From contig JAIBDD010000010.1 in assembly GCA_024679565.1 (NCBI GenBank), positions 29,396 to 93,395 on the forward strand: DNA of 64,000 bases, given 5' to 3'. This document shows, piece after piece, positions 2,424-33,581 of the stretch (positions are counted from its first letter, which is position 1; each line of letters opens with the position of its first letter). The DNA is from Bacteroidota bacterium. Its GTDB lineage: Bacteria; Bacteroidota; Bacteroidia; NS11-12g; UBA9320. Made by a program: the position numbers and the translations under genes. Below the pieces are notes generated by a model. The model had not been told where the DNA came from, did no database searches, and saw nothing but the letters and a program-made list of their open reading frames with translations.

Positions 2424-2505
2424 GCGGGTGTGGTGAAATTGGTAGACACGCTAGACTTAGGATCTAGTGCTTAACCGCGTGAAGGTTCGAGTCCTTTCAC
2501 CCGCA
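2424..2505 (+). tRNA. tRNA-Leu(TAG)
   Basis: GCGGGTG/CACCCGC acceptor stem, D-loop TGGTAGAC, anticodon arm CTAGA-CTTAGGA-TCTAG, long variable arm, GGTTCGAGTCC T-arm; no encoded CCA. Confidence 0.97.
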
Positions 2506-6140: not shown

Positions 6141-7496
6141 ATGATAGTTAAAAACGATTCCAAAATTATAAATGGTTGGACTTTTTATGATTGGGCAAAT
6201 TCGGTCTACAATTTAGTCATTACTTCCGTTGTATTTCCAAAGTTCTTCTTGGCTCAAACGGAGTCATTGCCAGGTTTACCAGCTAATACAGTCGAGTTTT
6301 TTGGAAGAGAATTTAATAACGTTGAGCTGTACTCATACGTTTTTTCAGTTTCGTTCATTGTCGTTTCGTTTCTTGTCCCGCTGCTAAGTGGTATTGCCGA
6401 TTACTTGGGGAATAAGAAAAGGTTTATGCAGTTCTTCTGCTATTTGGGAGCATTGTCGTGTATTTCCATGTTCTTTTTCGACGTTAACCACCTTGAAATA
6501 AGTATGTTATCTCCGTTCTTTGCCAGCATCGGTTTCTGGGGAAGCTTGGTGTTTTATAATTCTTATTTACCCGAAATCGCTACACCAGATCAGCACGATA
6601 GAATTAGTGCGAAAGGGTTTTCGTTAGGATATGTCGGAAGTATTCTGTTGCTCATATCCATCATTGTAGCACTCAAGATATTCCCTGAAGATGGTGGTCG
6701 CGTTACCCGATTAGGCTTTATTGCTGTTGGTTTGTGGTGGGCTGGTTTTGCACAATTCACCTACCTGAGATTACCAAATAACGTATACGACAAAAAGCCA
6801 GACAAAGAAAAAGGGTATATCTACAAAGGTTTCCGAGAGTTACAAAAGGTGTGGAACCAATTGACAGAACAGCCTCAATTAAAACGATTCTTATTTTCGT
6901 TTTTCATCTACAACATGGGGGTTCAAACCATCATGCTCTTAGCCGTGGTCTTTGCCGACACAGAGATCAATTGGCCAATTGATGAGGCGACTGGAGAACC
7001 TGATAAAACAGGTTTGATCGTGAGTATTATTCTGATTCAACTTGTTGCGGTTCTGGGAGCACTCGTCATGTCGCGATTGTCTAAGAAAATTGGAAACATC
7101 GCTGTAATTAAGATATCCGTAGTGTTTTGGTTCCTAATTTGCGTGAGGGCCTACTTCATAACTGAACCGGGTCAGTTTTATGTGCTAGCTGCTGGAGTAG
7201 GATTTGTAATGGGCGGAATACAATCAATGAGTAGATCTACATATTCAAAGATGCTACCTGAAACAACAGACCATGCTTCATACTTCAGTTTTTACGATGT
7301 ATTAGAAAAGATAGGCTTAATCATTGGGCCTTTTCTATTTGGTTTTGCAAACGGCCACTTAGGAGGTATGCGTAACGCAATAATTATTTTAGGTACCATA
7401 TTTATACTTGGTTTCATAAGTCTGTTTTGGGTGAAATCGGTTAAACCCAAGTCGTTTGACGGAATGAAGGCCATATCTGACACTAACTTGGTTTAA
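6141..7496 (+). CDS. MFS transporter, UMF1/ATG22-like family
   Basis: WTFYDWANS motif, about 12 TM segments, FYNSYLP, GGIQSMSRS. Confidence 0.85.
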   Translation: MIVKNDSKIINGWTFYDWANSVYNLVITSVVFPKFFLAQTESLPGLPANTVEFFGREFNNVELYSYVFSVSFIVVSFLVPLLSGIADYLGNKKRFMQFFCYLGALSCISMFFFDVNHLEISMLSPFFASIGFWGSLVFYNSYLPEIATPDQHDRISAKGFSLGYVGSILLLISIIVALKIFPEDGGRVTRLGFIAVGLWWAGFAQFTYLRLPNNVYDKKPDKEKGYIYKGFRELQKVWNQLTEQPQLKRFLFSFFIYNMGVQTIMLLAVVFADTEINWPIDEATGEPDKTGLIVSIILIQLVAVLGALVMSRLSKKIGNIAVIKISVVFWFLICVRAYFITEPGQFYVLAAGVGFVMGGIQSMSRSTYSKMLPETTDHASYFSFYDVLEKIGLIIGPFLFGFANGHLGGMRNAIIILGTIFILGFISLFWVKSVKPKSFDGMKAISDTNLV

Positions 7497-7502
7497 ACAC
7501 CT

Positions 7503-8204
7503 ATGCACCATTTCTATAGTCAAAATATCACGAATGCAGTCGTAGAGCTTAGCGAAGAGGAGAGTCGCCATTGCACTATAGTAATGCGCCTATCTGTGGG
7601 TGACGAAATACTTGTGTTTGATGGCGTTGGTAAAAAGTTGAAGTGTCGTATCACCGAAGCTAAAAAGCATGTTGTTGCCGAGGTAATTGAAGTGGAGGAA
7701 GAGGAATCCTCAGCGAAAATGGCACTTACCTTGGCTGTTAGTCCTACCAAAAGTGCTGATCGTATGGAATGGATGGTAGAGAAGCTAGTAGAAATTGGTG
7801 TATCGCACATTGTGTTTATCAAAACTGAAAAAGGAGAACGTTCTAGACTCAACGAAAAACGACTTTGGAAAAAAGCCGTTTCGGCTATGAAGCAGTCTGG
7901 AAACCTTTGGTTGCCAAAAATAGAAACTGAAGTAAAGTTTAAAGACTTTTTAGAAACTGACCAATCAAGTCAGAAATTTATAGCACACTGCTTCGATAAA
8001 TCGAAGACGATATTAGATGCCAAAGCCACTCATCCTTCTGTGACCATTTGTATAGGCCCGGAAGGAGATTTTTCCGAATCAGAAGTTAGTGCCGCAGAAG
8101 CAGCAAATTTTGTCCCATTATCCTTAGGTTTGCCAAGATATAGGACTGAAACAGCTGCTGTTGTTGCAGGTACTTTATTCAACCACTTTTACGTTACCCT
8201 ATAG
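7503..8204 (+). CDS. rsmE: 16S rRNA (uracil-1498-N3)-methyltransferase
   Basis: H...VMRL, EKLVEIG, AMKQS, IGPEGDFS, LG..YRTETA. Confidence 0.93.
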   Translation: MHHFYSQNITNAVVELSEEESRHCTIVMRLSVGDEILVFDGVGKKLKCRITEAKKHVVAEVIEVEEEESSAKMALTLAVSPTKSADRMEWMVEKLVEIGVSHIVFIKTEKGERSRLNEKRLWKKAVSAMKQSGNLWLPKIETEVKFKDFLETDQSSQKFIAHCFDKSKTILDAKATHPSVTICIGPEGDFSESEVSAAEAANFVPLSLGLPRYRTETAAVVAGTLFNHFYVTL

Positions 8205-12809: not shown

Positions 12810-15800
12810 TTACATATTTCTTCTGTATTGCCCACCAACTTCAAACAGCGCTTCGGTAATTTCTCCTAACGAGCAATATTTACATACTTCCATGAGCTTG
12901 TCAAACACGTTTTCGTTTCGTAAAGCACTTTGTTGTAAGTTTTTTAGTAGGTCTTTTGATTCACCTTCGTTTCTCTTATGTAGTGACGTCAAGGTGTCTA
13001 TCTGTAATTCCTTTTCTTCTGTTGTTGCGCGAATAACTTCTTTGGGTAAGATGGTAGGCGAACCTTTGCTGCTTAGGAATGTATTTACACCAATGATCGG
13101 GAATTCTCCTGTGTGTTTTAGGGTTTCATAATACAGGCTTTCTTCTTGAATTTTAGAACGTTGGTACATGGTTTCCATGGCACCAAGTACACCACCTCTG
13201 TCTGTTATTTTGTCAAATTCAGTCAAAACAGCTTCCTCTACCAAGTCGGTCAATTCTTCAATGATAAAAGAACCTTGTAATGGGTTTTCGTTTTTCGCTA
13301 AACCAAGTTCACGGTTTATAATTAACTGAATGGCGACAGCCCTTCTTACACTTTCTTCGGTTGGCGTAGTAATAGCCTCATCATAGGCATTGGTATGCAG
13401 GCTGTTGCAGTTGTCGTAAATGGCGTAAAGTGCTTGTAGTGTGGTGCGTATGTCGTTAAAATCTATTTCTTGTGCGTGCAAACTGCGACCACTTGTTTGA
13501 ATATGATACTTCAACATTTGACTTCGTTCGTCAGCACCATATTTGAGTTTCATGGCTTTTGCCCATATGCGTCTTGCCACACGTCCAATCACGGCATATT
13601 CTGGGTCAATACCGTTCGAAAAGAAGAACGACAAGTTTGGACCAAAGTCGTTTATATCCATGCCACGACTCAAGTAATATTCTACGTAAGTGAATCCGTT
13701 GGCAAGTGTGAATGCAAGTTGGGAAATCGGATTCGCGCCAGCTTCAGCGATGTGGTATCCTGATATCGAAACTGAATAAAAGTTTCTAACCTTGCTCTGG
13801 ATGAAATATTCTTGTACATCACCCATTAAGCGCAATGCAAATTCAGTAGAGAAGATGCACGTATTTTGTGCTTGATCTTCTTTTAATATGTCTGCTTGAA
13901 CAGTACCACGAACCTGACTTAAAGTCTTGTTTTTTAATTCATTATATATGTCTGCTGGCAATACCTTGTCGCCCGTTAGGCCTAATAGCATTAAGCCAAG
14001 ACCATCATTACCTTCAGGTAGCTCACCATTGTATGTCGGTTGAGCTGTACCCTTGACTTTAAAGTAGTCCGAAATGTTTGTTTTAACGTCTGCTTCAAGG
14101 TTATTTTCCTTTATGTACAGTTCACATTGCTGGTCAATGGCAGCGTTCATGAAATATCCCAATAACATGGGAGCCGGGCCGTTTATGGTCATAGAAACCG
14201 ACGTCATTTGATGTGCCAAATTAAAGCCTGAGTATAGCTTTTTGGCGTCATCCAAACAGCAAATGCTAACGCCAGCGTTACCTATTTTGCCATAGATGTC
14301 AGGCCTGTAGTCTGGATCATTACCGTATAAAGTAACTGAGTCAAATGCGGTGCTCAATCGTTTGGCTGGCATGTCGCTACTTAGGTAATGAAAACGCTTG
14401 TTGGTTCTTTCGGGTCCACCTTCTCCGGCGAACATCCGTGTTGGGTCTTCACCTTGTCTCTTAAAAGGATAAATGCCTGCTGTGTACGGGAACTTGCCTG
14501 GTACGTTTTCCTGTAAATTCCATTGTAAAACGTCTCCCCAAGCTTCATATTTAGGCAACGATACCTTGCTGATTTTTTGGTGAGATAGAGATGTTGTTTT
14601 TGTCTCTACTTTAATTTCTTTATTACGAACAAAGTAGGAGTAAATATCATTGGCGTAGGCCTCTTTAACTTTAGGCCATTCATCCAACAATACCTGTAAT
14701 TTAGGGTCAAAATCTAATGAAACCTTTGCGTAGGTTTCGTCCAAATCTTTGATAATACGGTCAGCGTCTGAAACAGCTGTCTCACGTATCGTCTCGATTG
14801 TTTTTCGAATGCCGAATAGTTTCTGTGCGATACCGGCTTGTGTTTTAGCCCATTTGTCGTAGCCTCTGTTGTTCTCTGAAATCTCAGACAGGTATCTTAC
14901 GCGCTGTGGCGGTATGATGTATATTTTTTCCGATTCTGACACCTCTTCTCCATATGAAGAAGTAAACGTCGATTTTGTGTTAGAATTTATTGTGTCAATC
15001 AATGTGCCATATAGGGCATTGACACCAGGGTCGTTAAACTGACTGGCAATCGTGCCATAAACCGGCATATCGTCCACATTCGCTTCGAATAATTTATGAT
15101 TGCGTTGAAATTGCTTCTTTACGTCGCGGAGCGCATCTAGTGCTCCACGCTTGTCAAATTTGTTAATGGCAATAACATCGGCAAAATCGAGCATGTCGAT
15201 TTTTTCTAGTTGTGTTGCGGCACCGTATTCAGGTGTCATCACATACAAGCTAACGTCACTATGGTCGGTTATTTCTGTATCGCTTTGGCCAATCCCAGAG
15301 GTTTCTAGGATGATTAAGTCATAACCAGCAACCTTAAGTATGTCTTTCGCTGTATCAATGTGAGCCGATAAAGCTAAATTGGCTTGACGGGTTGCTAAAG
15401 AACGCATGTATACACGTTCATTACGTATGCTGTTCATGCGAATTCTATCTCCAAGCAAAGCACCTCCAGTCTTTCTTTTACTTGGGTCTACAGAGATAAT
15501 GGCAATTGATTTGTCTGAGAAGTCGTTTAGAAATCTACGCACCAATTCATCAACCAAACTACTCTTTCCTGCACCGCCTGTTCCTGTTATTCCCAATACG
15601 GGAGTCGTAATCGATTGAGCCTCAGACTTTATCGATTCAAGTAAGTCTTTATTTTCTTCAGGGAAGTTCTCTGCCGCAGAAATGACACGTGCAATAGACA
15701 TTTTATTCTGCTTACGGAATGATTCTACTTCTCCATTTAGGCCATAACCCGTTGGGTAATCAGATTGTTCAACTAAATCATTAATCATTCCTTGAAGACC

Positions 15801-16190
15801 CATTGATCTTCCATCGTCTGGATGATAGATCTTAGTTATTCCATACGCTTGTAGGTCTGCAATTTCTGAGGGAAGAATTGTACCCCCGCCGCCGCCAAAC
15901 AATTTGATGTGGCTCGCACCTTTTTCTTTAAGTAGGTCGTACATATACTTAAAGTATTCATTATGACCACCTTGGTAGCTGGTCATTGCAATAGCGTTTG
16001 CATCTTCCTGTATTGCGGTATTCACTACTTCTTCGGCGCTTCTGTCGTGCCCTAAGTGTATGACTTCGCAACCCGTTGATTGTATGATGCGTCGCATAAC
16101 GTTGATTGCTGCGTCATGTCCATCAAATAGTGATGCTGCAGTAACAATCCGAACTTTATTTTTGGGTATGTAGGGAGACTGATTTTCCAT
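12810..16190 (-). CDS. icmF: Fused isobutyryl-CoA mutase (B12-binding + MeaB-like GTPase + mutase)
   Basis: [11 protein letters not shown]12-binding motif, GTGGAGKS P-loop, VDPS...[33 protein letters not shown]; ATG at 16190 with its own TATCTTTG box at 16209-16216. Confidence 0.93.
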
Positions 16191-16235
16191 AATTACAAAA
16201 GCGAGTGGCAAAGATATTCTTTTCGGATTTGACAT

Positions 16236-16268
16236 AAAAGAAAAGGCCGCTTAGTTAAAGCGGCCTTT
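16236..16268 (-). terminator. Intrinsic terminator of candidate sRNA copy 1
   Basis: 11-bp stem AAAGGCCGCTT/AAGCGGCCTTT, read on the minus strand as ...GCGGCC-UUUUCUUUU. Confidence 0.85.
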
Positions 16269-16377
16269 AAGCTCTTAATTAGAGCATGGTAGTACTTAGT
16301 GGTTAGTTTTACTTGTCCCTTACGGGCTTAAGCTAATAGTAGTACAAATAGTAAAAACAGAATTTTAAATAATTTTC

Positions 16378-16418
16378 AAGTAGTAAGTAATAAGTAGTGT
16401 AGTGTAGTATTTATCAAA
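16378..16418. repeat. 41-nt direct repeat, copy 1 (40/41 identical to 16763-16803)
   Basis: AAGTAGTAAGTAATAAGTAGTGTAGTGTAGTATTTATCAAA. Confidence 0.95.
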
Positions 16419-16457
16419 TGTTTTAATTTCTTTGTTCGTGTTGAACGATTTACATAT

Positions 16458-16473
16458 TGCAATGCGTGTGCCA
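16458..16473 (-). promoter_or_regulatory. sigma54 (RpoN) -24/-12 promoter
   Basis: Minus strand TGGCAC-ACGCA-TTGCA with canonical GG-N10-GC spacing. Confidence 0.8.
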
Positions 16474-16515
16474 ACGAATATGTAAATGGTGTAAAAAGTA
16501 TGTTAAAATATTGTT

Positions 16516-16528
16516 AATCAATGACTTA
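16516..16528 (+). promoter_or_regulatory. IHF-consensus site upstream of sigma54 promoter 1
   Basis: AATCAATGACTTA matches WATCAANNNNTTR; the equivalent site lies at the same distance in copy 2. Confidence 0.5.
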
Positions 16529-16642
16529 AAATGTTGTTTTGTTATTTGCAATGGTATGCCAACAATAGGAATATGATTCATAATGGGATTTAATTATCAA
16601 AAGTATAATTAGTCTCGAATTCAACAAAAATGTCATGAAATG

Positions 16643-16669
16643 AAAAAGCCACCTGGTGAGGTGGCTTTT
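16643..16669 (-). terminator. Intrinsic terminator of candidate sRNA copy 2
   Basis: 11-bp stem AAAAGCCACCT/AGGTGGCTTTT with 4-nt loop; U-tract on the minus strand (could act bidirectionally). Confidence 0.85.
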
Positions 16670-16762
16670 CTGCTCGAGTTGAGCGATGGTTAATAATAAA
16701 GTTAAATTAATTTAAAACGCTTGTCGTTTTTGTTTAGTAGTAGATCAGTAATTAATAACTTT

Positions 16763-16803
16763 AAGTAGTAAGTAATAAGTAGTGTAGTATAGTATTTATC
16801 AAA
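16763..16803. repeat. 41-nt direct repeat, copy 2
   Basis: AAGTAGTAAGTAATAAGTAGTGTAGTATAGTATTTATCAAA. Confidence 0.95.
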
Positions 16804-16837
16804 AGTCTTTATCGATCATTCGATGTGATATGTATAT

Positions 16838-16853
16838 TCCAATACTTGTGCCA
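16838..16853 (-). promoter_or_regulatory. sigma54 (RpoN) -24/-12 promoter (variant -12)
   Basis: Minus strand TGGCAC-AAGTA-TTGGA; positionally equivalent to the copy 1 promoter. Confidence 0.65.
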
Positions 16854-16894
16854 CAACCAGGATGTCGGAATTACCTTTGAGTTAAAAGACTTAT

Positions 16895-16907
16895 AATCAA
16901 TGTATTG
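16895..16907 (+). promoter_or_regulatory. IHF-consensus site upstream of sigma54 promoter 2
   Basis: AATCAATGTATTG matches WATCAANNNNTTR. Confidence 0.5.
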
Positions 16908-17042
16908 GTGTTTTATATTTCGTTTTGGCACACTGTTACATATATTGGATATTTTCCCAAAAAGTATAAATAGTATCAAAAAGAGACAATATTCTTGTGA
17001 TTTTGAGGTTTCACGTATTCCATTTTTTTGCACCTTTGCCCG

Positions 17043-18380
17043 ATGTACATACTAAAAGGATTATTTGGCCTTATCGTACTATTGGCCATTGCGTTTATTT
17101 CAAGTAGTCATAGAAAATCAATCAACTGGCGTTTGGTTTTGTCTGGCGTTGGTATGCAATTGATTTTAGCACTCCTAATTTTTAAAGTACCTGGTTTTGA
17201 TAAAGTATTTGAAATATTAGCTGCATCCTTTACCAAATTGTTGTCGTTTACCGATGAAGGGGCTCAGTTCATTTTCGGGAAATGGCCTGATGTTGCGCAA
17301 TTATTTTCAATGGAAAATGTAAACGGCAATCCAACCCAGGTAACACATACCATCGGATATGTTTTTGCTTTTAAAGTTTTGCCAACCATTGTTTTCTTTT
17401 CTGCGCTTACGTCTTTATTGTACTATTTAGGGGTCCTACAAAAAATAGTTTACGGTTTTGCCTGGATATTGAGCAAGACCATGCGTTTAAGTGGAGCAGA
17501 AAGTCTTGCAGCCGCAGCCAACGTATTTGTTGGTCAAACCGAAGCTCCCCTTGTTGTTAAGCCTTATATTAAAAGCATGACTAAGTCTGAGATACTTTGT
17601 CTTATGACTGGAGGTATGGCAACGATTGCGGGTGGGGTATTTGCCGCCTTTATTGGTTTGCTTGGAGGTGATAGTATTGAAATGCAGCAGATGTTTGCTA
17701 AACACTTGTTAACGGCGTCAGTATTGAGTGCGCCAGCAGCAATCGTATTCAGTAAAATGTTACTTCCAGAAAAGGAAAACGTTGATAAGAACCTAAATAT
17801 AGACAAAACCAAAATTGGGAGTGGGCCATTGGAGGCAATTTCTAACGGAACAACTGAGGGTATCAAGCTAGCCGTTAACGTTGGAGGAATGATCCTTGTC
17901 TTTTTGGCATTCATCGCAATGATTAATTATTTGCTGGCGAATGTTATTGGTCATCATACGGGGTTAAATGAGTGGGTAAAAGCTGTTAGTGACGGCACAT
18001 ATACAGAGTTTAAATTGCAGATGATATTAGGGTATGTATTTGCACCCGTGGCTTGGGTAATTGGAATCCCATGGAATGATACACTACTCGCGGGTCAGTT
18101 GCTAGGAGAAAAAACAGTGATTAACGAATTCATTGCGTATATCTCTTTGGGGAATATGCAATCCAATGGTTTAATAGCCAACAATAGAACAGTGGTCATC
18201 ATGACCTACGCACTTTGTGGGTTTTCAAATTTTGCTTCTATAGGTATTCAAATTGGTGGAATTGGTACCATCGCCCCAAATCAACGCCCAACCTTGGCAA
18301 AACTAGGTATGCGGGCTTTATTGGGTGGTACATTAGCCTGCCTAATGACAGCAGCAGTTGCAGGCATCTTCTATGGCTAA
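17043..18380 (+). CDS. Concentrative nucleoside transporter (CNT/NupC family)
   Basis: VLPTIVFFSAL, ANVFVGQTEAP, GMATIAG, KTVINEFIAY, ALCGFSNFASIGI; ATG at 17043 preferred. Confidence 0.93.
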   Translation: MYILKGLFGLIVLLAIAFISSSHRKSINWRLVLSGVGMQLILALLIFKVPGFDKVFEILAASFTKLLSFTDEGAQFIFGKWPDVAQLFSMENVNGNPTQVTHTIGYVFAFKVLPTIVFFSALTSLLYYLGVLQKIVYGFAWILSKTMRLSGAESLAAAANVFVGQTEAPLVVKPYIKSMTKSEILCLMTGGMATIAGGVFAAFIGLLGGDSIEMQQMFAKHLLTASVLSAPAAIVFSKMLLPEKENVDKNLNIDKTKIGSGPLEAISNGTTEGIKLAVNVGGMILVFLAFIAMINYLLANVIGHHTGLNEWVKAVSDGTYTEFKLQMILGYVFAPVAWVIGIPWNDTLLAGQLLGEKTVINEFIAYISLGNMQSNGLIANNRTVVIMTYALCGFSNFASIGIQIGGIGTIAPNQRPTLAKLGMRALLGGTLACLMTAAVAGIFYG

Positions 18381-30697: not shown

Positions 30698-31078
30698 TCA
30701 AATTGGGTTTAAACTATTGGTTTTTACGACACACAATGTTAAGATGATAAACAAGAAACGCCTTAAAATATTGTTGATTTTAAGTAATATTTTGAACATT
30801 AGTCGTTGCCGATTTAACATATTGACTTTAGTAAAAGGGTGACACTTGTAGAAAAGGAACTTATAATACGAATAAAATAATTGTAGGTTGAACACCGTTT
30901 TGAAAAAACAAAACCGTGTATTTGTGAAATGATATATCAGAAAACAATGATAGCCAGGCAATAAAGTCATCGAAATATTGTTTAAATTTTAACAATATTT
31001 TGCTTGGAATATTGAAACAGGCTATCTTTACAAGATATTTTGCAACATACAGAGTAAAAGAAGATTTAAAAGAACAAG

Positions 31079-32089
31079 ATGATAAAAAGAATACTTCTCA
31101 GTGCATTAACAATCGGACTTCTATTTGGGTTGGGCCGTGACAGTGCATCTGGTCAGGATCCAGAATTCTCGCAGTTTTACGCAACACCTGTTTACACTAA
31201 CCCTGCGATGGCAGGTACAGGCCAATGTCAAAGAGGTGGCGGCGGAGGTCGTGCGGTAATAAATTATAGAAACCAATGGCCAAGTTTGCCAGGTACATTT
31301 GTTACAACGGCATTTTCTTACGATCAACATTTTGACAAGATAAACGGTGGTTTAGGGTTATTAGCTGTAAGAGATGTTGCCGGTGAAGGTTTGTTGACGA
31401 CTACACAATTAAGTGCTATATATTCTTACCAGTTAGTCGTAAGCCGAAAAGTATTTATGAGATTTGGTCTGGAAGGTCAAGTAATGCAACGCGGTTTAGA
31501 TTGGTCTAAATTACGTTGGGAAGATCAAATAGATGCAACACGTGGTTTTGTGAATGCAACTTCTGAGCCTATTCCTCCTGCTAAAATAACCACACCTAAT
31601 TTTAGTACAGGTTGGTTGATTTATACTGAAAAATTTTATGGTGGTGTTGCTGTACATAACATGATTGAACCTGTTCAGTCGTTTTATGGTGATCCTGAAG
31701 CAAAATTGCCTAGACGCTATACGGCGCATTTAGGTTCTGTAATTCCATTGGACAAAAGACGTAACCCAAATAGCACGTTTAGTCCTAATGCTTTATTCAT
31801 GATGCAAGGTCAATTTACACAATTGAATGTTGGATTTTACTTAAACAGAGGGCCACTTGTTTCGGGTCTTTGGTTCCGACAAACACTGGGTGAAGTAAAG
31901 AACTCAGACGCATTGATGCTGTTAGTAGGATTTAGAAAAGACAAATTTAAATTTGGATATAGTTTCGATTTAACTGTAGATTCAAAGAAAGCCGCAGCAC
32001 GTGGTTCTCACGAAATAAGTACAGCAATTGAATGGTGTCCAAGACGACCTGTCATTAAACACAAACCACTACACTGCCCTGATTTTTAA
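31079..32089 (+). CDS. PorP/SprF family T9SS membrane protein
   Basis: QDPEFSQFY...NPAMAG, YRNQW, GYSFD, GSHEIS. Confidence 0.9.
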   Translation: MIKRILLSALTIGLLFGLGRDSASGQDPEFSQFYATPVYTNPAMAGTGQCQRGGGGGRAVINYRNQWPSLPGTFVTTAFSYDQHFDKINGGLGLLAVRDVAGEGLLTTTQLSAIYSYQLVVSRKVFMRFGLEGQVMQRGLDWSKLRWEDQIDATRGFVNATSEPIPPAKITTPNFSTGWLIYTEKFYGGVAVHNMIEPVQSFYGDPEAKLPRRYTAHLGSVIPLDKRRNPNSTFSPNALFMMQGQFTQLNVGFYLNRGPLVSGLWFRQTLGEVKNSDALMLLVGFRKDKFKFGYSFDLTVDSKKAAARGSHEISTAIEWCPRRPVIKHKPLHCPDF

Positions 32090-32162
32090 TCAAATAATAG
32101 AATTTTAGACAATAATTCGGTAGAATTGCAGTTTAGTAGAAAGACGATATTTTCGAAAAAAT

Positions 32163-33581
32163 ATGAAACGAAATAACTTAGTTTTTTTATTTGCATGTAG
32201 TTTGATCATATTTCAAACAGCATGTAAAAAGGAAAAGTCATCCATCACAGGGTGGAATTATAACGACGCTAAATGGGGCGGATTCGAGACTTACGACTAT
32301 GCAGGTCAAGAAACAGGTCCTGGATTGGTGTACGTTAAAGGTGGTAATTTTACCATGGGTTCATCTGAGCAAGACGTACTTTATGATCGAAACAATTTCG
32401 AGCGAAAAGTTACGGTTGCCTCATTCTATATGGATGAAACCGAAGTAAGTAACTTACATTATCTAGAGTATTTATACTGGTTAAAGCGAATTTTTGCTGA
32501 TTTGCCAGAAGTTTATGAAACGGCTTTGCCAGACACAAACTGCTGGAGAGACAAGCTTGCGTATAACGAGCCTTACGTTGAGTATTACTTACGTCACCCA
32601 GCATACAAGAACTATCCAGTTGTTGGTGTTAGCTGGTTGCAAGCAACTGAGTTTGCTAAGTGGAGAACAGATCGTGTAAATGAGATGATTCTTATCCGTG
32701 AAGGAATTCTTGAGCCGGATATTAACCAGATGAATGAAGAAAACTTTGTTACTGGGGCGTATTTGGTAGGTCAATACCAAGGTATGGACGGAAAGCATTT
32801 GGTGAAAGACATCAATGTGAAGAAGGGGACACGTAACGTAAAAATGGAGGATGGAATTTTCCTTCCTGATTACAGACTACCAACAGAGGCCGAGTGGGAA
32901 TATGCTGCTACAGCAAACGTTGGTTCATCTTTATATGAAAACGTAAATGATAAGAAGATTTATTCTTGGGGTGGTTTGACTGTAAGAAATCAGACTGGAA
33001 AAGAAAAAGATCGTGGTCTTATCAATGCGAACTTTAAAAGAGGAAAAGGTGATCAAGGTGGTATCGCAAGTTGGTTAAACGATGGAGCGCTTATTACTAC
33101 GGAAGTTAAGGCTTACTGGCCAAATGATTACGGTCTATATAATATGAGTGGTAACGTAAGTGAGTGGGTGATGGATATATATCGTGCACTTTCACTTGAT
33201 GATAACACTGACTTTAATCCATTTAGAGGAAACGATTACCAAAAACCTAAGTTAGACCAGTGGGGTGTAATTGACGTGAAAGATAGTCTTGGACGAATTG
33301 TTTACGAAGATGTTGAAACGGTTGATGTTCAAGAAAGACGTAACTACCAAAAAGCCGACAACGTTGGTTTCCTAGACGAAGAGGTATATAACGGTGATAA
33401 CCAAATGTATGAATACGGCGTGTCGTCACTTGTTAACGATCAAGCACATGTATACAAAGGTGCATCATGGAATGATCGTGGTTATTGGATGTCTCCAGGA
33501 ACAAGACGTTTCTTAGACCAAAGACAATCACTATCAACGCTAGGCTTCAGATGTGCTATGCACAGAGTTGGGGCACCTTGA
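32163..33581 (+). CDS. gldJ: Gliding motility lipoprotein GldJ (SUMF1/FGE-like)
   Basis: Lipobox, TGW.YND, ETEVSN..Y.EYL.W, YPVVGVSW.QA, RLPTEAEWEYAA; divergent from porU-porV. Confidence 0.85.
   Translation: MKRNNLVFLFACSLIIFQTACKKEKSSITGWNYNDAKWGGFETYDYAGQETGPGLVYVKGGNFTMGSSEQDVLYDRNNFERKVTVASFYMDETEVSNLHYLEYLYWLKRIFADLPEVYETALPDTNCWRDKLAYNEPYVEYYLRHPAYKNYPVVGVSWLQATEFAKWRTDRVNEMILIREGILEPDINQMNEENFVTGAYLVGQYQGMDGKHLVKDINVKKGTRNVKMEDGIFLPDYRLPTEAEWEYAATANVGSSLYENVNDKKIYSWGGLTVRNQTGKEKDRGLINANFKRGKGDQGGIASWLNDGALITTEVKAYWPNDYGLYNMSGNVSEWVMDIYRALSLDDNTDFNPFRGNDYQKPKLDQWGVIDVKDSLGRIVYEDVETVDVQERRNYQKADNVGFLDEEVYNGDNQMYEYGVSSLVNDQAHVYKGASWNDRGYWMSPGTRRFLDQRQSLSTLGFRCAMHRVGAP

What the first reader, a model, noticed from the sequence alone, without database searches (positions are those of the whole stretch)
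16236..16980. Tandem pair of paralogous sigma54-driven small RNA genes with an ACUAC-repeat core
Seen: the gap between icmF and the CNT transporter contains two copies (period about 380-400 bp) of the same minus-strand layout. In order: TGGCAC-N5-TTG(C/G) promoter; short 5' hairpin (16434-16446; 16811-16824); 41-nt core UUUGAUAAAUACUA(C/U)ACUACACUACUUAUUACUUACUACUU, 40/41 identical while the flanks diverge; a shared UACUACUA block; a middle hairpin of unrelated sequence (CCC-GUAA-GGG vs AAAACG/CGUUUU); a GCUC/GAGC hairpin; an intrinsic terminator. The core has a single G, so it should be unpaired. ACUA occurs about 10 times in copy 1 (outside the terminator) and 6 times in copy 2. icmF has its own -7 box downstream of terminator 1, so these units are not its leader. 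Established: activator-controlled paralogous sRNAs exist as sigma54-driven Qrr RNAs, and repeated single-stranded motifs titrate proteins in CsrB/RsmY/Z; Bacteroidota generally lack Hfq and CsrA. Inference: a possibly undescribed family of protein-sponge or base-pairing sRNAs, with an ACUAC-binding partner such as an RRM, cold-shock or KH protein.
Basis: partly seen in the sequence, partly recalled or inferred. Interest (0 to 1): 0.9.

Follow-up and report, generated by a model that had tools for sequence, protein, structure and literature searches.

The report
Sigma-54 small RNAs with UACUAC repeats
Two neighbouring genes for small non-coding RNAs, each with a sigma-54-type promoter and many copies of a UACUAC motif that also sits in front of several envelope-protein genes, look like a new family of decoy regulators in uncultured marine Bacteroidia.

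Summary
Two minus-strand units (16236-16447 and 16643-16827) each have a TGGCAC-N5-TTG(C/G) promoter, a 5' hairpin, a 41-nt core that is 40/41 identical, internal hairpins and an intrinsic terminator.

I found 30 such units in 8 genera of one family of uncultured Bacteroidia. They occur as 1-3 tandem copies, and every one whose downstream side was read lies just upstream of icmF. Nothing in Rfam 15 or in the papers I searched matches them.

- **Promoter support:** the genome has rpoN and four enhancer-binding proteins. A pair of 15-nt upstream sites sits at fixed positions (-135/-116) before the promoters.
- **Structure:** the hairpins covary. The UACUAC motifs are more than 10-fold enriched and predicted unpaired.
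- **Not coding:** indels of 5, 7 and 14 nt among close relatives exclude a reading frame.

New here: the same hairpin-plus-ACUAC module lies in the 5'UTR, 5-25 nt before the start codon, of envelope, secreted and receiver-protein mRNAs. It is conserved there across species and genera.

The most likely mechanism (about 0.4) is that the sRNAs mimic these leaders and titrate an unknown ACUAC-binding factor, as CsrB and CrcZ do for their partners. Base-pairing remains a serious rival (about 0.3). Transcript ends, RpoN dependence and the binding partner are all untested.

The parts
16973..16987 (-). Upstream site A of copy 2 (GTCTCTTTTTGATAC), 134 nt before TGGCAC
   Evidence: the best-scoring 15-mers lie at about -135 and -116 (or about -125 and -106) in most of the 16 genus g1 units. 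Sequence.
16953..16967 (-). Upstream site B of copy 2 (ATACTTTTTGGGAAA)
   Evidence: the pair scores 20.4 bits in the genome scan.
16839..16853 (-). Sigma-54-type promoter of copy 2 (TGGCAC-AAGTA-TTGG)
16643..16827 (-). sRNA copy 2 (distal, about 185 nt): 5' hairpin 16824-16811, core 16803-16763, AAAACG/CGUUUU hairpin, AUUAUUAACCAU box, GCUC/GAGC hairpin, terminator 16669-16643
   Evidence: (R1 scores 55.8 bits).
16557..16607 (-). Upstream sites of copy 1: TATACTTTTGATAAT 16607-16593, ATCCCATTATGAATC 16589-16575, TTCCTATTGTTGGCA 16571-16557
   Evidence: the pair scores 18.2 bits.
16459..16473 (-). Sigma-54-type promoter of copy 1 (TGGCAC-ACGCA-TTGC)
16236..16447 (-). sRNA copy 1 (next to icmF, about 212 nt): 5' hairpin 16447-16434, core 16418-16378, GAAAAUUAUU block, hairpin 16326-16317, AAACUAAC and UACUAC blocks, hairpin 16285-16271, terminator 16268-16242 plus U-tract
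   Evidence: (R1 scores 261.6 bits). RNA-library contigs cover 16278-16415 and 16299-16424.
16209..16216 (-). -7 box TATCTTTG of icmF's own promoter, between terminator 1 and the icmF start at 16190
   Evidence: The same box is seen in the relatives read.
12810..16190 (-). icmF (fused isobutyryl-CoA mutase), the conserved downstream neighbour
   Evidence: B12-binding, MeaB, MM_CoA_mutase. Synteny.
17043..18380 (+). CNT nucleoside transporter, divergent upstream neighbour in this genome

Best explanation
The gap holds two paralogous genes for trans-acting small RNAs of about 185 and 212 nt.

**Transcription.** Each is transcribed from its own sigma-54 (RpoN) promoter. An enhancer-binding protein is expected to bind the paired 15-nt sites about 115-135 nt upstream. 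Each RNA ends at its own intrinsic terminator.

**The RNA.** Each RNA presents a long, G-poor, unpaired stretch. It starts with the box UUUGAUAAAUACUA, carries many UACUAC-type motifs and ends in GAAAAUUAUU. Short hairpins keep this stretch open.

**The link to mRNAs.** The same arrangement (hairpin, ACUAC repeats, then AUGAAAAUU...) forms the translation start region of a small set of mRNAs. These encode envelope or secreted proteins and a receiver protein.

**Proposed mechanism.** The sRNAs imitate these leaders and compete for a factor that binds them. That factor is most simply a single-strand RNA-binding protein, such as one of the two RRM proteins or two cold-shock-domain proteins of the genome. 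When the enhancer-binding protein is active, the factor would be drawn off its mRNA targets and their translation or stability would change.

**Shown:** the anatomy, its conservation, hairpin covariation, motif enrichment and predicted openness, the promoter and upstream sites, the presence of rpoN and enhancer-binding proteins, and the shared module in mRNA leaders.

**Inferred:** transcription from these promoters, action in trans, the existence of an ACUAC-binding factor, and titration.

My confidence that this is a real, functional sRNA gene family is about 0.85. The figure given below (0.4) is for the decoy mechanism.
For: **Family and conservation**
- The pattern promoter-N28-58-TTGATAAATAC occurs in 10 of 66 genomes of the family. 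All 10 are in genus g1 (G000 plus 9 of 10 others). There were 0 hits in reversed controls.
- Model R1 recovers every g1 unit in the 12 loci I gave it.
- Diverged units with the same layout, upstream of icmF, occur in genera g3, g8, g9, g13, g2 and g4. That gives 30 units in 8 genera.

**Promoter**
- TGGCA(C/T)-N5-TTG is present in 30 of 30 units.
- The upstream site pair sits at fixed positions.
- The genome has 1 rpoN and 4 strong enhancer-binding proteins.

**Structure**
- 91.4% of cells are paired, against 68.5% in shuffles.
- 24 of 25 pairs show changes on both sides.
- 0 of 500 shuffles and no slid register reach these values.

**Motif**
- In 9 representative units, UACUA occurs 34 times (3.5 expected), ACUAC 27 times (2.1 expected) and CUACU 25 times (1.7 expected).
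- Mean unpaired probability at ACUA positions is 0.81, against 0.48 elsewhere, over 30 units.

**Motif number varies as in sponge RNAs**
- Close relatives differ by a 5-nt loss and a 14-nt gain of repeat units.
- One unit has the whole core duplicated.
- Genomes carry 1-3 tandem copies.

**Same module in mRNA leaders**
- ACUAC stands before the start codon in 7 of 8 genes read from the family of L243 (G000 and five best-matching genes of other g1 species, plus weaker paralogue matches in G010 and G001).
- A UACUAC-type repeat stands there in 7 of 7 DUF6089 orthologues: ACUAC itself in 6, and UUACUACUU in G009. The flanks have diverged in both families.
- Only 58 of 1797 genes (3.2%) have any ACUAC in -40..-1.
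- The module also precedes a DUF6089-like gene in genus g5, a receiver gene in g7, and a sigma-54-type-promoter secreted-protein gene in g3.

**No long antisense target**
- The genome has 837 sites complementary to 9-mers of the core, against 1000 for the reversed core.

**Candidate binders**
- No Hfq or CsrA was found. Two RRM_1 and two CSD proteins are present.

**Weak expression hint**
- RNA-library contigs from two studies cover the body of copy 1.
- One of them continues past 16424 as a relative's 5' part and ends, after extra G's, 1-2 nt from the predicted start.
Against: - **No binding factor:** no binding protein is identified, and no experiment or raw-read data show the RNA ends, strand or level. 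Contigs cannot show these. One RNA library also covers the spacer and icmF, so DNA carry-over is possible.
- **Weak -12 element:** it is TTGC in only 8 of 30 units (TTGA 14, TTGG 6, TTGT 2). This is weaker than the textbook GC.
- **Inconsistent 5' hairpin:** 6 of 30 units have no predicted 5' hairpin.
- **Confounded upstream-site matrix:** it partly resembles the Bacteroidota -7 box (TAnnTTTG). Its genome scan is only modestly above control (64 against 42 pairs), and some sites at mRNA genes may simply be promoters.
- **Small target set:** single ACUAC is not enriched before start codons in general (68 occurrences, mid-range among 30 permuted 5-mers), so the mRNA set is small.
- **A seed-like box:** the invariant box UUUGAUAAAUACUA is what a base-pairing seed would look like.
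- **Biased unit selection:** units were partly selected by ACUA content, which inflates motif counts somewhat.
- **Fitted alignment:** the alignment used for covariation was fitted to the model and includes 3 weak matches.
- **No autoregulation sign:** the leaders of the RRM and CSD genes carry no ACUAC.
Confidence: 0.4

Rival explanations
1. These are classical base-pairing sRNAs. The invariant 5' box UUUGAUAAAUACUA and the ACUAC stretch act as an unpaired seed. It pairs with G/A/U-rich sites (GUAGU...) in target mRNAs, perhaps helped by an RRM protein as with GibS/FopS and RbpB in Bacteroides.
For: - The 14-nt box is invariant in every g1 unit found with it, and the core is predicted unpaired.
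- Anatomy of a 5' single strand plus terminator resembles the FopS consensus, which pairs with translation start regions (PMC11697453, passages read).
- RRM proteins are present.
Against: - There is no excess of complementary 9-mers (837 against 1000 in the control). No outstanding duplex was found apart from the genes' own antisense strand.
- Repeat number changes freely between close relatives, which is unusual for a seed.
- The mRNA leaders carry the same sequence as the sRNA, not its complement.
- The target search used crude ORF calls in one genome that is 91% complete.
Confidence: 0.3
2. The units act in cis on icmF. Sigma-54 transcripts would read through the terminator under some condition, so that each unit serves as a conditional leader or attenuator that couples icmF to the activator.
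For: - Every unit whose downstream side was read lies on the same strand directly upstream of icmF, in genera g1, g2, g3, g4, g8, g9 and g13.
- In one RNA library, separate short contigs cover parts of copy 1 and the start of icmF.
Against: - Each unit ends in a strong terminator.
- A conserved -7 box lies between the terminator and icmF.
- icmF keeps its place, without any unit, in 19 of 28 sampled genomes of the family and in the 12 sampled genomes of the sister family.
- Tandem copies, each with its own promoter and terminator, are not what a leader looks like.
- No Rfam riboswitch or leader family matches.
Confidence: 0.08
3. The units are decaying remnants or duplicated leaders of former ACUAC-leader genes. 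They would be promoter plus 5'UTR left behind after gene loss, with no function of their own, or they would encode a tiny peptide.
For: - The module is shared with real mRNA leaders.
- The block after the repeats resembles a start region (UUG/AUG-AAA-AUU-AUU).
- Short frames such as AUG-CUC-UAA recur at the last hairpin (my reading).
Against: - The units are kept across 8 genera, with covarying hairpins and their own terminators.
- The promoter and upstream sites are kept at fixed spacing.
- Indels of 5, 7 and 14 nt, and loss of the start codon in relatives, exclude a conserved peptide.
Confidence: 0.07

Closest known systems
CrcZ/CrcY (Pseudomonas; recalled from memory, not read here)
   Same: - Paralogous sRNAs driven by a sigma-54 promoter with an enhancer-binding activator (CbrB).
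- Several unpaired copies of a short motif that also marks the translation start regions of target mRNAs.
- They act by titrating the protein that binds those sites.
   Different: - The CrcZ motif is A-rich (AAnAAnAA) and the partner is Hfq/Crc.
- Here the motif is UACUAC, no Hfq gene was found, and there is no sequence or Rfam relation.
- The phylum is different, and the partner here is unknown.
CsrB/RsmY/RsmZ sponges of CsrA/RsmA
   Same: The logic is the same: many copies of the mRNA-leader motif on a small RNA, variable motif number, and paralogues.
   Different: - The GGA motifs sit in hairpin loops, whereas here the motifs lie in an open, G-poor strand.
- No CsrA gene was found.
- Those promoters are sigma-70 promoters under GacA-type control.
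Qrr1-5 (Vibrio)
   Same: They are multiple paralogous sRNAs from sigma-54 promoters that depend on an activator (LuxO).
   Different: - Qrr RNAs are Hfq-dependent base-pairing RNAs with one conserved seed and four stem-loops.
- There is no Rfam match here and no repeated motif in Qrr.
FopS/GibS sRNAs with RbpB (Bacteroides thetaiotaomicron; PMC11697453, passages read)
   Same: They belong to the same phylum. They form a multicopy paralogous sRNA family with a conserved single-stranded 5' stretch and a terminator. They are bound by an RRM-1 protein in single-stranded regions and act at translation start regions.
   Different: - FopS has canonical sigma-ABfr promoters, one seed (R1), and acts by base-pairing.
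- It was deposited in Rfam according to the paper, yet Rfam 15 gives no match here.
- There are no ACUAC repeats in what I read.
Rfp36 of Flavobacterium psychrophilum (PMC9723704, passages read)
   Same: It is a putative regulatory RNA listed downstream of the sigma-54-type motif SM4 in another member of the class.
   Different: Only its name and position were seen. Its sequence is in supplements that are closed, so relatedness could not be tested.

Membership tests
Sigma-54-dependent promoter | GG at -24 and GC at -12 with fixed spacing (TGGCAC-N5-TTGC) | tested here: inconclusive
   The -24 element and the spacing are present in 30 of 30 units. The -12 element is TTGC in only 8 of 30 (TTGA 14, TTGG 6, TTGT 2). 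In the window, copy 1 is canonical and copy 2 has TTGG.
Sigma-54-dependent promoter | rpoN and at least one enhancer-binding protein in the genome | tested here: met
   One Sigma54_DBD match (175.8 bits). Four strong Sigma54_activat proteins: three with a receiver domain and one without a sensor domain.
Sigma-54-dependent promoter | Upstream activator sites about 100-150 nt from the promoter | tested here: met
   Paired 15-mers (kTCyCnTTwTGrrAy) lie at about -135/-116 or -125/-106 in the 16 g1 units examined. Binding itself was not tested.
Sigma-54-dependent promoter | Transcription lost in an rpoN mutant | not testable with these tools
   The genus is known here only from uncultured genome records.
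Protein-sponge sRNA (CsrB/CrcZ kind) | Multiple accessible copies of a motif that also marks target mRNA leaders | tested here: met
   Motif enrichment and predicted openness. The same motif stands before start codons and is conserved in two gene families and in other genera.
Protein-sponge sRNA (CsrB/CrcZ kind) | A cognate RNA-binding protein that is titrated | not testable with these tools
   There are only candidates: 2 RRM_1 and 2 CSD proteins.
CsrB/RsmZ family proper | GGA motifs in loops, and CsrA present | tested here: not met
   The core has one G, G content is 10-15% in g1 units, and there is no CsrA match.
Qrr family | Match to the Rfam Qrr model, and Hfq present | tested here: not met
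   No Qrr match even at E <= 10, and no Hfq match in a genome that is 91% complete.
FopS/GibS family | Match to the Rfam models for Bacteroides sRNAs | tested here: not met
   The only Bacteroides family listed is BTnc231, at 15.2 bits against a cut-off of 80.4, on the other strand.
Cis leader or riboswitch of icmF | One transcript from the leader start into the gene, with no separate promoter | tested here: not met
   There is a terminator and then a conserved -7 box before icmF. Transcripts themselves were not measured.

The most novel reading that the evidence does not exclude
An Hfq- and CsrA-less lineage of Bacteroidota may have its own Csr/Crc-like circuit.

- An unidentified protein would recognise UACUAC repeats in the translation start regions of mRNAs for envelope, secreted and receiver proteins.
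- Sigma-54/activator-induced sRNAs that are start-region mimics (hairpin, GAUAAAUACUA, ACUAC repeats, GAAAAUU) would titrate it.
- Paired sites resembling those of the sRNA promoters, most of them top scorers in the matrix scan, also stand before the sigma-54-type promoters of gldLM and a receiver gene, and at promoters of ACUAC-leader genes. One signal could therefore set both transcription and translation of a surface/motility regulon.
Probability: 0.3. Interest if true: 0.85.

Novelty: new variant of a known kind. Interest (0 to 1): 0.72.

Why it matters
Bacteroidota lack Hfq, ProQ and CsrA, and the identity of their global post-transcriptional regulators is an open question. So far the main case is RbpB with the FopS/GibS RNAs in gut Bacteroides.

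This locus gives a concrete, testable system:
- a defined repeat motif;
- a set of sRNAs that carry it many times;
- a set of mRNAs that carry it at the start codon;
- a defined promoter with activator sites.

If the decoy model holds, pull-downs with these RNAs should deliver the missing RNA-binding protein. They would also link sigma-54 signalling to surface-protein and possibly gliding/T9SS expression in abundant marine Bacteroidia.

If the RNAs turn out to base-pair instead, they are still, as far as I could find, the first conserved sRNA family with a sigma-54-type promoter described in the phylum with its anatomy and distribution.

The main limit is that all carriers seen are uncultured genomes.

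Tried and rejected
**Rfam.** At gathering thresholds only a tRNA at 2424-2505 matched. At E <= 10 over 16100-17100 there were 17 weak matches. The best, Phe_leader (33.7 and 30.8 bits against a cut-off of 55), aligns only the last two hairpins. Rejected as family matches.

**BLAST in the own genome.** It found only the two copies. It missed the related modules on C18 and C6, which I found later by motif.

**All-species pattern scan.**
- 8 units with 5 or more ACUA lay in 5 stretches, and one further unit was cut at a contig end.
- It therefore cannot show absence elsewhere.

**MAFFT plus RNAalifold on 11 units.** This gave only 4 pairs because the hairpins were misaligned. I replaced it with a model-guided alignment.

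**Antisense target search.** No enrichment was found.

**ACUAC before start codons in general.** Not enriched.

**Pattern ACTACTAC-N4-22-ATG over 191 genomes of the order against the reversed control.**
- By my own arithmetic the ratios are about 0.5 in g1, 0.7 in g3, 0.3 in g4 and 0.15-0.35 in most of the sister family.
- Two sister-family genera are high (about 0.7 and 2.5).
- This is too noisy to show that leaders and sRNAs co-occur.

**Upstream-site matrix scan.** It gave 64 pairs against 42 in the control and is confounded by -7 boxes. The strict palindrome TCYC-N5-GRGA does not match the window's own sites.

**Leaders of the RRM and CSD genes.** No ACUAC.

**Assigning one of the four enhancer-binding proteins to the sites.** Not attempted beyond domain reading.

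**RNA libraries.**
- X16 and X18 gave no cover over copy 1. X19 gave no cover over copy 2. X17 gave no cover between 16451 and 16491.
- X16 and X17 contigs over 16762-16864 belong to a relative with a different 150-nt spacer.

**Closed material.**
The relation to Rfp36 is therefore untested.

**Literature.**
- Searches found no description of such RNAs. For these I saw listings only.
- I read passages of PMC9723704 and PMC11697453.
- What I say about CrcZ, CsrB, Qrr and NtrC is recalled, not read.
Full report
**1. What is in the window.** Read on the minus strand, the 850-bp gap between icmF and a divergent CNT transporter holds two units 380 bp apart. Both flanking genes were confirmed by Pfam.
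- Copy 1, next to icmF, has TGGCAC-ACGCA-TTGC at 16473-16459. By the usual spacing this predicts a start at 16447.
- It then has a 4-bp hairpin, the 41-nt core (16418-16378), the block GAAAAUUAUU, three further ACUA-rich stretches, two small hairpins and a strong terminator (16268-16242).
- Copy 2 has TGGCAC-AAGTA-TTGG at 16853-16839, with a predicted start at 16827. It has its own hairpin, the core (16803-16763, one difference from copy 1), other internal hairpins and a terminator (16669-16643).
- The two stretches aligned (each unit with its promoter) are 76% identical overall, so the core stands out.
- Both units fold better than shuffles (z = -3.1 and -5.5), with the core left open.
- A -7 box (TATCTTTG, 16216-16209) lies between terminator 1 and the icmF start at 16190.

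**2. It is not a known RNA family.**
- Rfam 15 gives no match at curated thresholds.
- Below them it gives only terminator look-alikes.
- Four literature searches found nothing comparable (listings only).
- The nearest precedent in print is the mention of a putative RNA, Rfp36, behind a sigma-54-type motif in Flavobacterium psychrophilum (PMC9723704, passages). I could not see its sequence.

**3. It is a conserved gene family.**
- BLAST and a pattern made of the promoter plus TTGATAAATAC find the units in 10 of the 11 genomes of the genus (G000 included). The one without is 69% complete. There are none in 55 genomes of 12 other genera and none in reversed controls.
- Genomes carry one to three tandem copies.
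- A covariance model built from four copies recovers all units of the genus in the 12 loci I gave it. It also gave weak hits elsewhere. Two of these, in genera g3 and g8, are true relatives: promoter, ACUAC-rich RNA, terminator, -7 box, icmF.
- I then located icmF in 172 of 191 genomes of the order and read its upstream region in 40 of them.
- A TGGCAY-N5-TTG promoter 200-380 nt upstream, followed by a related RNA, was present in 9 of 28 sampled genomes of the family (genera g2, g3, g4, g8, g9, g13).
- In the sister family, 1 of 12 regions matched the looser pattern used (TGGTAT..., no ACUA downstream), and I read it as chance.
- A class-wide pattern search (400 further genomes, 84 families) hit 3 of 9 genomes of the family and 10 of 391 outside it. 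The latter look like coding repeats, and the reversed control hit other genomes in the same table as well. One of these hits is in an unpublished genome.
- The all-species scan was cut off and is uninformative about absence.
- The named records that carry true hits are titled as uncultured Bacteroidetes/Bacteroidia genomes.

**4. Evidence that the RNA, not a protein, is selected.**
- Close relatives differ by a 5-nt loss, a 14-nt gain of repeat units and a duplication of the whole core. No reading frame survives this.
- On the model-guided alignment, 91.4% of cells pair (shuffles 68.5%), 24 of 25 pairs show double changes, and neither 500 shuffles nor slid registers come near.
- Caveat: the alignment was fitted to the structure and contains three weak matches.
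- The GCUC/GAGC hairpin varies little, whereas the 5', middle and terminator hairpins vary freely.

**5. The promoter.**
- The -24 element and the spacing are present in 30 of 30 units. The -12 element is TTGC in only 8, with TTGA in 14, TTGG in 6 and TTGT in 2. That is a real weakness.
- In its favour, the genome has only 18 such sites in all (6 in the control), among them one directly before dnaK. This fits the chaperone genes listed in the sigma-54 regulon of F. psychrophilum.
- rpoN and four enhancer-binding proteins are present.
- In the 16 units of the genus examined, two 15-mers of the type kTCyCnTTwTGrrAy lie at about -135 and -116 from TGGCAC, or one helical turn closer in three species.
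- This fixed geometry is what activator sites of sigma-54 promoters look like. That comparison is established knowledge recalled from NtrC-type systems.

**6. The repeat.**
- Across nine representative units from eight genera, UACUA, ACUAC and CUACU are 10-15 times more frequent than in shuffles.
- ACUA positions have a mean predicted unpaired probability of 0.81, against 0.48 for the rest.
- The units contain 10-15% G in the genus.

**7. The new lead.**
- Scanning the genome with the upstream-site matrix brought up the two sRNA promoters and the sigma-54-type promoters of gldL-gldM and of a lone receiver gene (GldL_N and Response_reg confirmed).
- It also brought up several loci without a sigma-54 promoter where an ACUAC-rich stretch follows within about 60-130 nt.
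- These stretches are 5'UTRs. In the family of L243 (a 730-aa membrane or secreted protein) the order is -7 box, hairpin, CUACUAUUACUACUACUACUUAAUUAUUGAUGAA, AUG.
- In the DUF6089 outer-membrane-type gene the order is -7 box, hairpin, GACUACUACUAC, 9 nt, AUG.
- Further cases precede a 1609-aa PKD protein, two small secreted proteins and the receiver gene.
- Among the genes of other species read, ACUAC is kept in 7 of 8 (L243 family, paralogues included). A UACUAC-type repeat is kept in 7 of 7 DUF6089 orthologues (ACUAC itself in 6), although the surrounding sequence has diverged. The background is 58 of 1797 genes with any ACUAC in -40..-1.
- The same is seen in other genera: before a DUF6089-like gene in g5, a receiver gene in g7, and a secreted-protein gene in g3 that has a sigma-54-type promoter and upstream-site-like repeats.
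- A third, sigma-70-type RNA module keeps about 41 nt unchanged in three genera behind a covarying hairpin. That stretch reads UCAAAGAUAAAAUACUAAACUACUACUUAUGAUGAAAAU.
- The sRNA 5' part (hairpin, GAUAAAUACUA, ACUAC repeats, GAAAAUUAUU) is therefore the same kind of sequence as these start regions, only without a conserved start codon.

**8. Mechanism.**
- A small RNA that carries many open copies of a motif that marks the start regions of a set of mRNAs is the signature of a decoy. I recall CsrB for CsrA and CrcZ for Hfq/Crc as examples, and CrcZ is also sigma-54 driven.
- Free variation in repeat number, tandem paralogues and the lack of complementary targets (837 sites against 1000 in the control) fit this better than a seed model.
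- The genome offers two RRM and two cold-shock-domain proteins and no Hfq or CsrA.
- I put the decoy model at about 0.4 and base-pairing at about 0.3. A cis role for icmF and a non-functional relic are below 0.1 each, and the rest is unassigned.
- The strict linkage to icmF in seven genera remains unexplained by any of these models.

**9. Expression.**
- Only assembled contigs of metatranscriptomes were available.
- Contigs from two studies cover the body of copy 1 (16278-16415 and 16299-16424).
- One of them runs on as a relative's 5' part. Read in the RNA sense, it ends with extra G's followed by UUCAACACGAAC, which is 1-2 nt from the predicted start.
- This is only a hint, because contigs cannot prove ends. 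One library also covers the spacer and icmF, so DNA may be present.

**10. Verdict.** The reading as an undescribed sRNA family with sigma-54-type promoters is well supported by comparative evidence. The sponge reading gains a concrete basis but is not proven. The closest known systems are analogues, not relatives.

Noticed in passing
G000 contig C53, about 19181 downwards (locus L253): gldL-gldM (GldL_N confirmed by Pfam) is preceded by TGGCATATTCGTTGC. A pair of upstream sites (TTCCCATAGTGGGAT / TTCCAATATTGTAAC) lies 162 nt before that promoter and resembles the sites of the sRNA promoters. The gliding/T9SS core may share the activator.
   Followed up: partly
G000 contig C18, about 30890-32205 (locus L248): This region is a hub with three elements. 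First, a sigma-70-type RNA module with a 5' hairpin and the stretch GAUAAAAUACUAAACUACUACUUAUGAUGAAAAUUAUUAACCAUG, of which about 41 nt are conserved in genera g12 and g5. Second, a high-scoring pair of upstream sites. Third, a sigma-54-type promoter before a lone receiver-domain gene whose start is preceded by ACUACUACGACU.
   Followed up: partly
G000 contig C6, about 7456-7690 (locus L245): Another sRNA-like unit: upstream-site-like pair overlapping a -7 box, then ...AUUACUACUACUACUUUGACC..., then a GC-rich terminator.
   Followed up: no
G000 contig C47, about 14609: A perfect TGGCAC-N5-TTGC lies about 30 nt before the dnaK start. This matches the chaperone genes listed in the sigma-54 regulon of Flavobacterium psychrophilum (PMC9723704).
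   Followed up: no
G000 contig C41, 21033-21533 and downstream (loci L175, L243): One of the four enhancer-binding-protein genes stops after 292 aa, inside its AAA+ domain, with an in-frame TAG. The L243-family gene with its ACUAC leader follows directly. This could be a broken gene or an assembly error.
   Followed up: no
window 16547-16561, minus strand: TGGCAT-ACCA-TTGCA, a promoter look-alike with a spacer one base too short, overlaps the third upstream site of copy 1. Relatives have TTGGCAC at the same place.
   Followed up: no
L009:1136-1335 (G006) and L047:1524-1769 (G004): The distal copy of G006 has 14 extra nt of ACUUACU repeats. The distal copy of G004 has the whole box-plus-core duplicated in tandem.
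   Followed up: partly
window 16287-16279, minus strand, and homologous places in relatives: A start-Leu-stop mini-frame (AUG-CUC-UAA, or UUG/GUG-CUC-UAA in some relatives) recurs at the foot of the GCUC/GAGC hairpin. In the distal type this place is preceded by a conserved AUUAUUAACC box.
   Followed up: no
L216 (G065) and L219 (G012), genus g3: The icmF-linked units of these species carry three or four extra hairpins with similar loops (UGAUUAC / GUGAUGAC) between the ACUAC part and the terminator.
   Followed up: no
window 2424-2505, plus strand: A tRNA gene, the only Rfam match of the window at curated thresholds.
   Followed up: no
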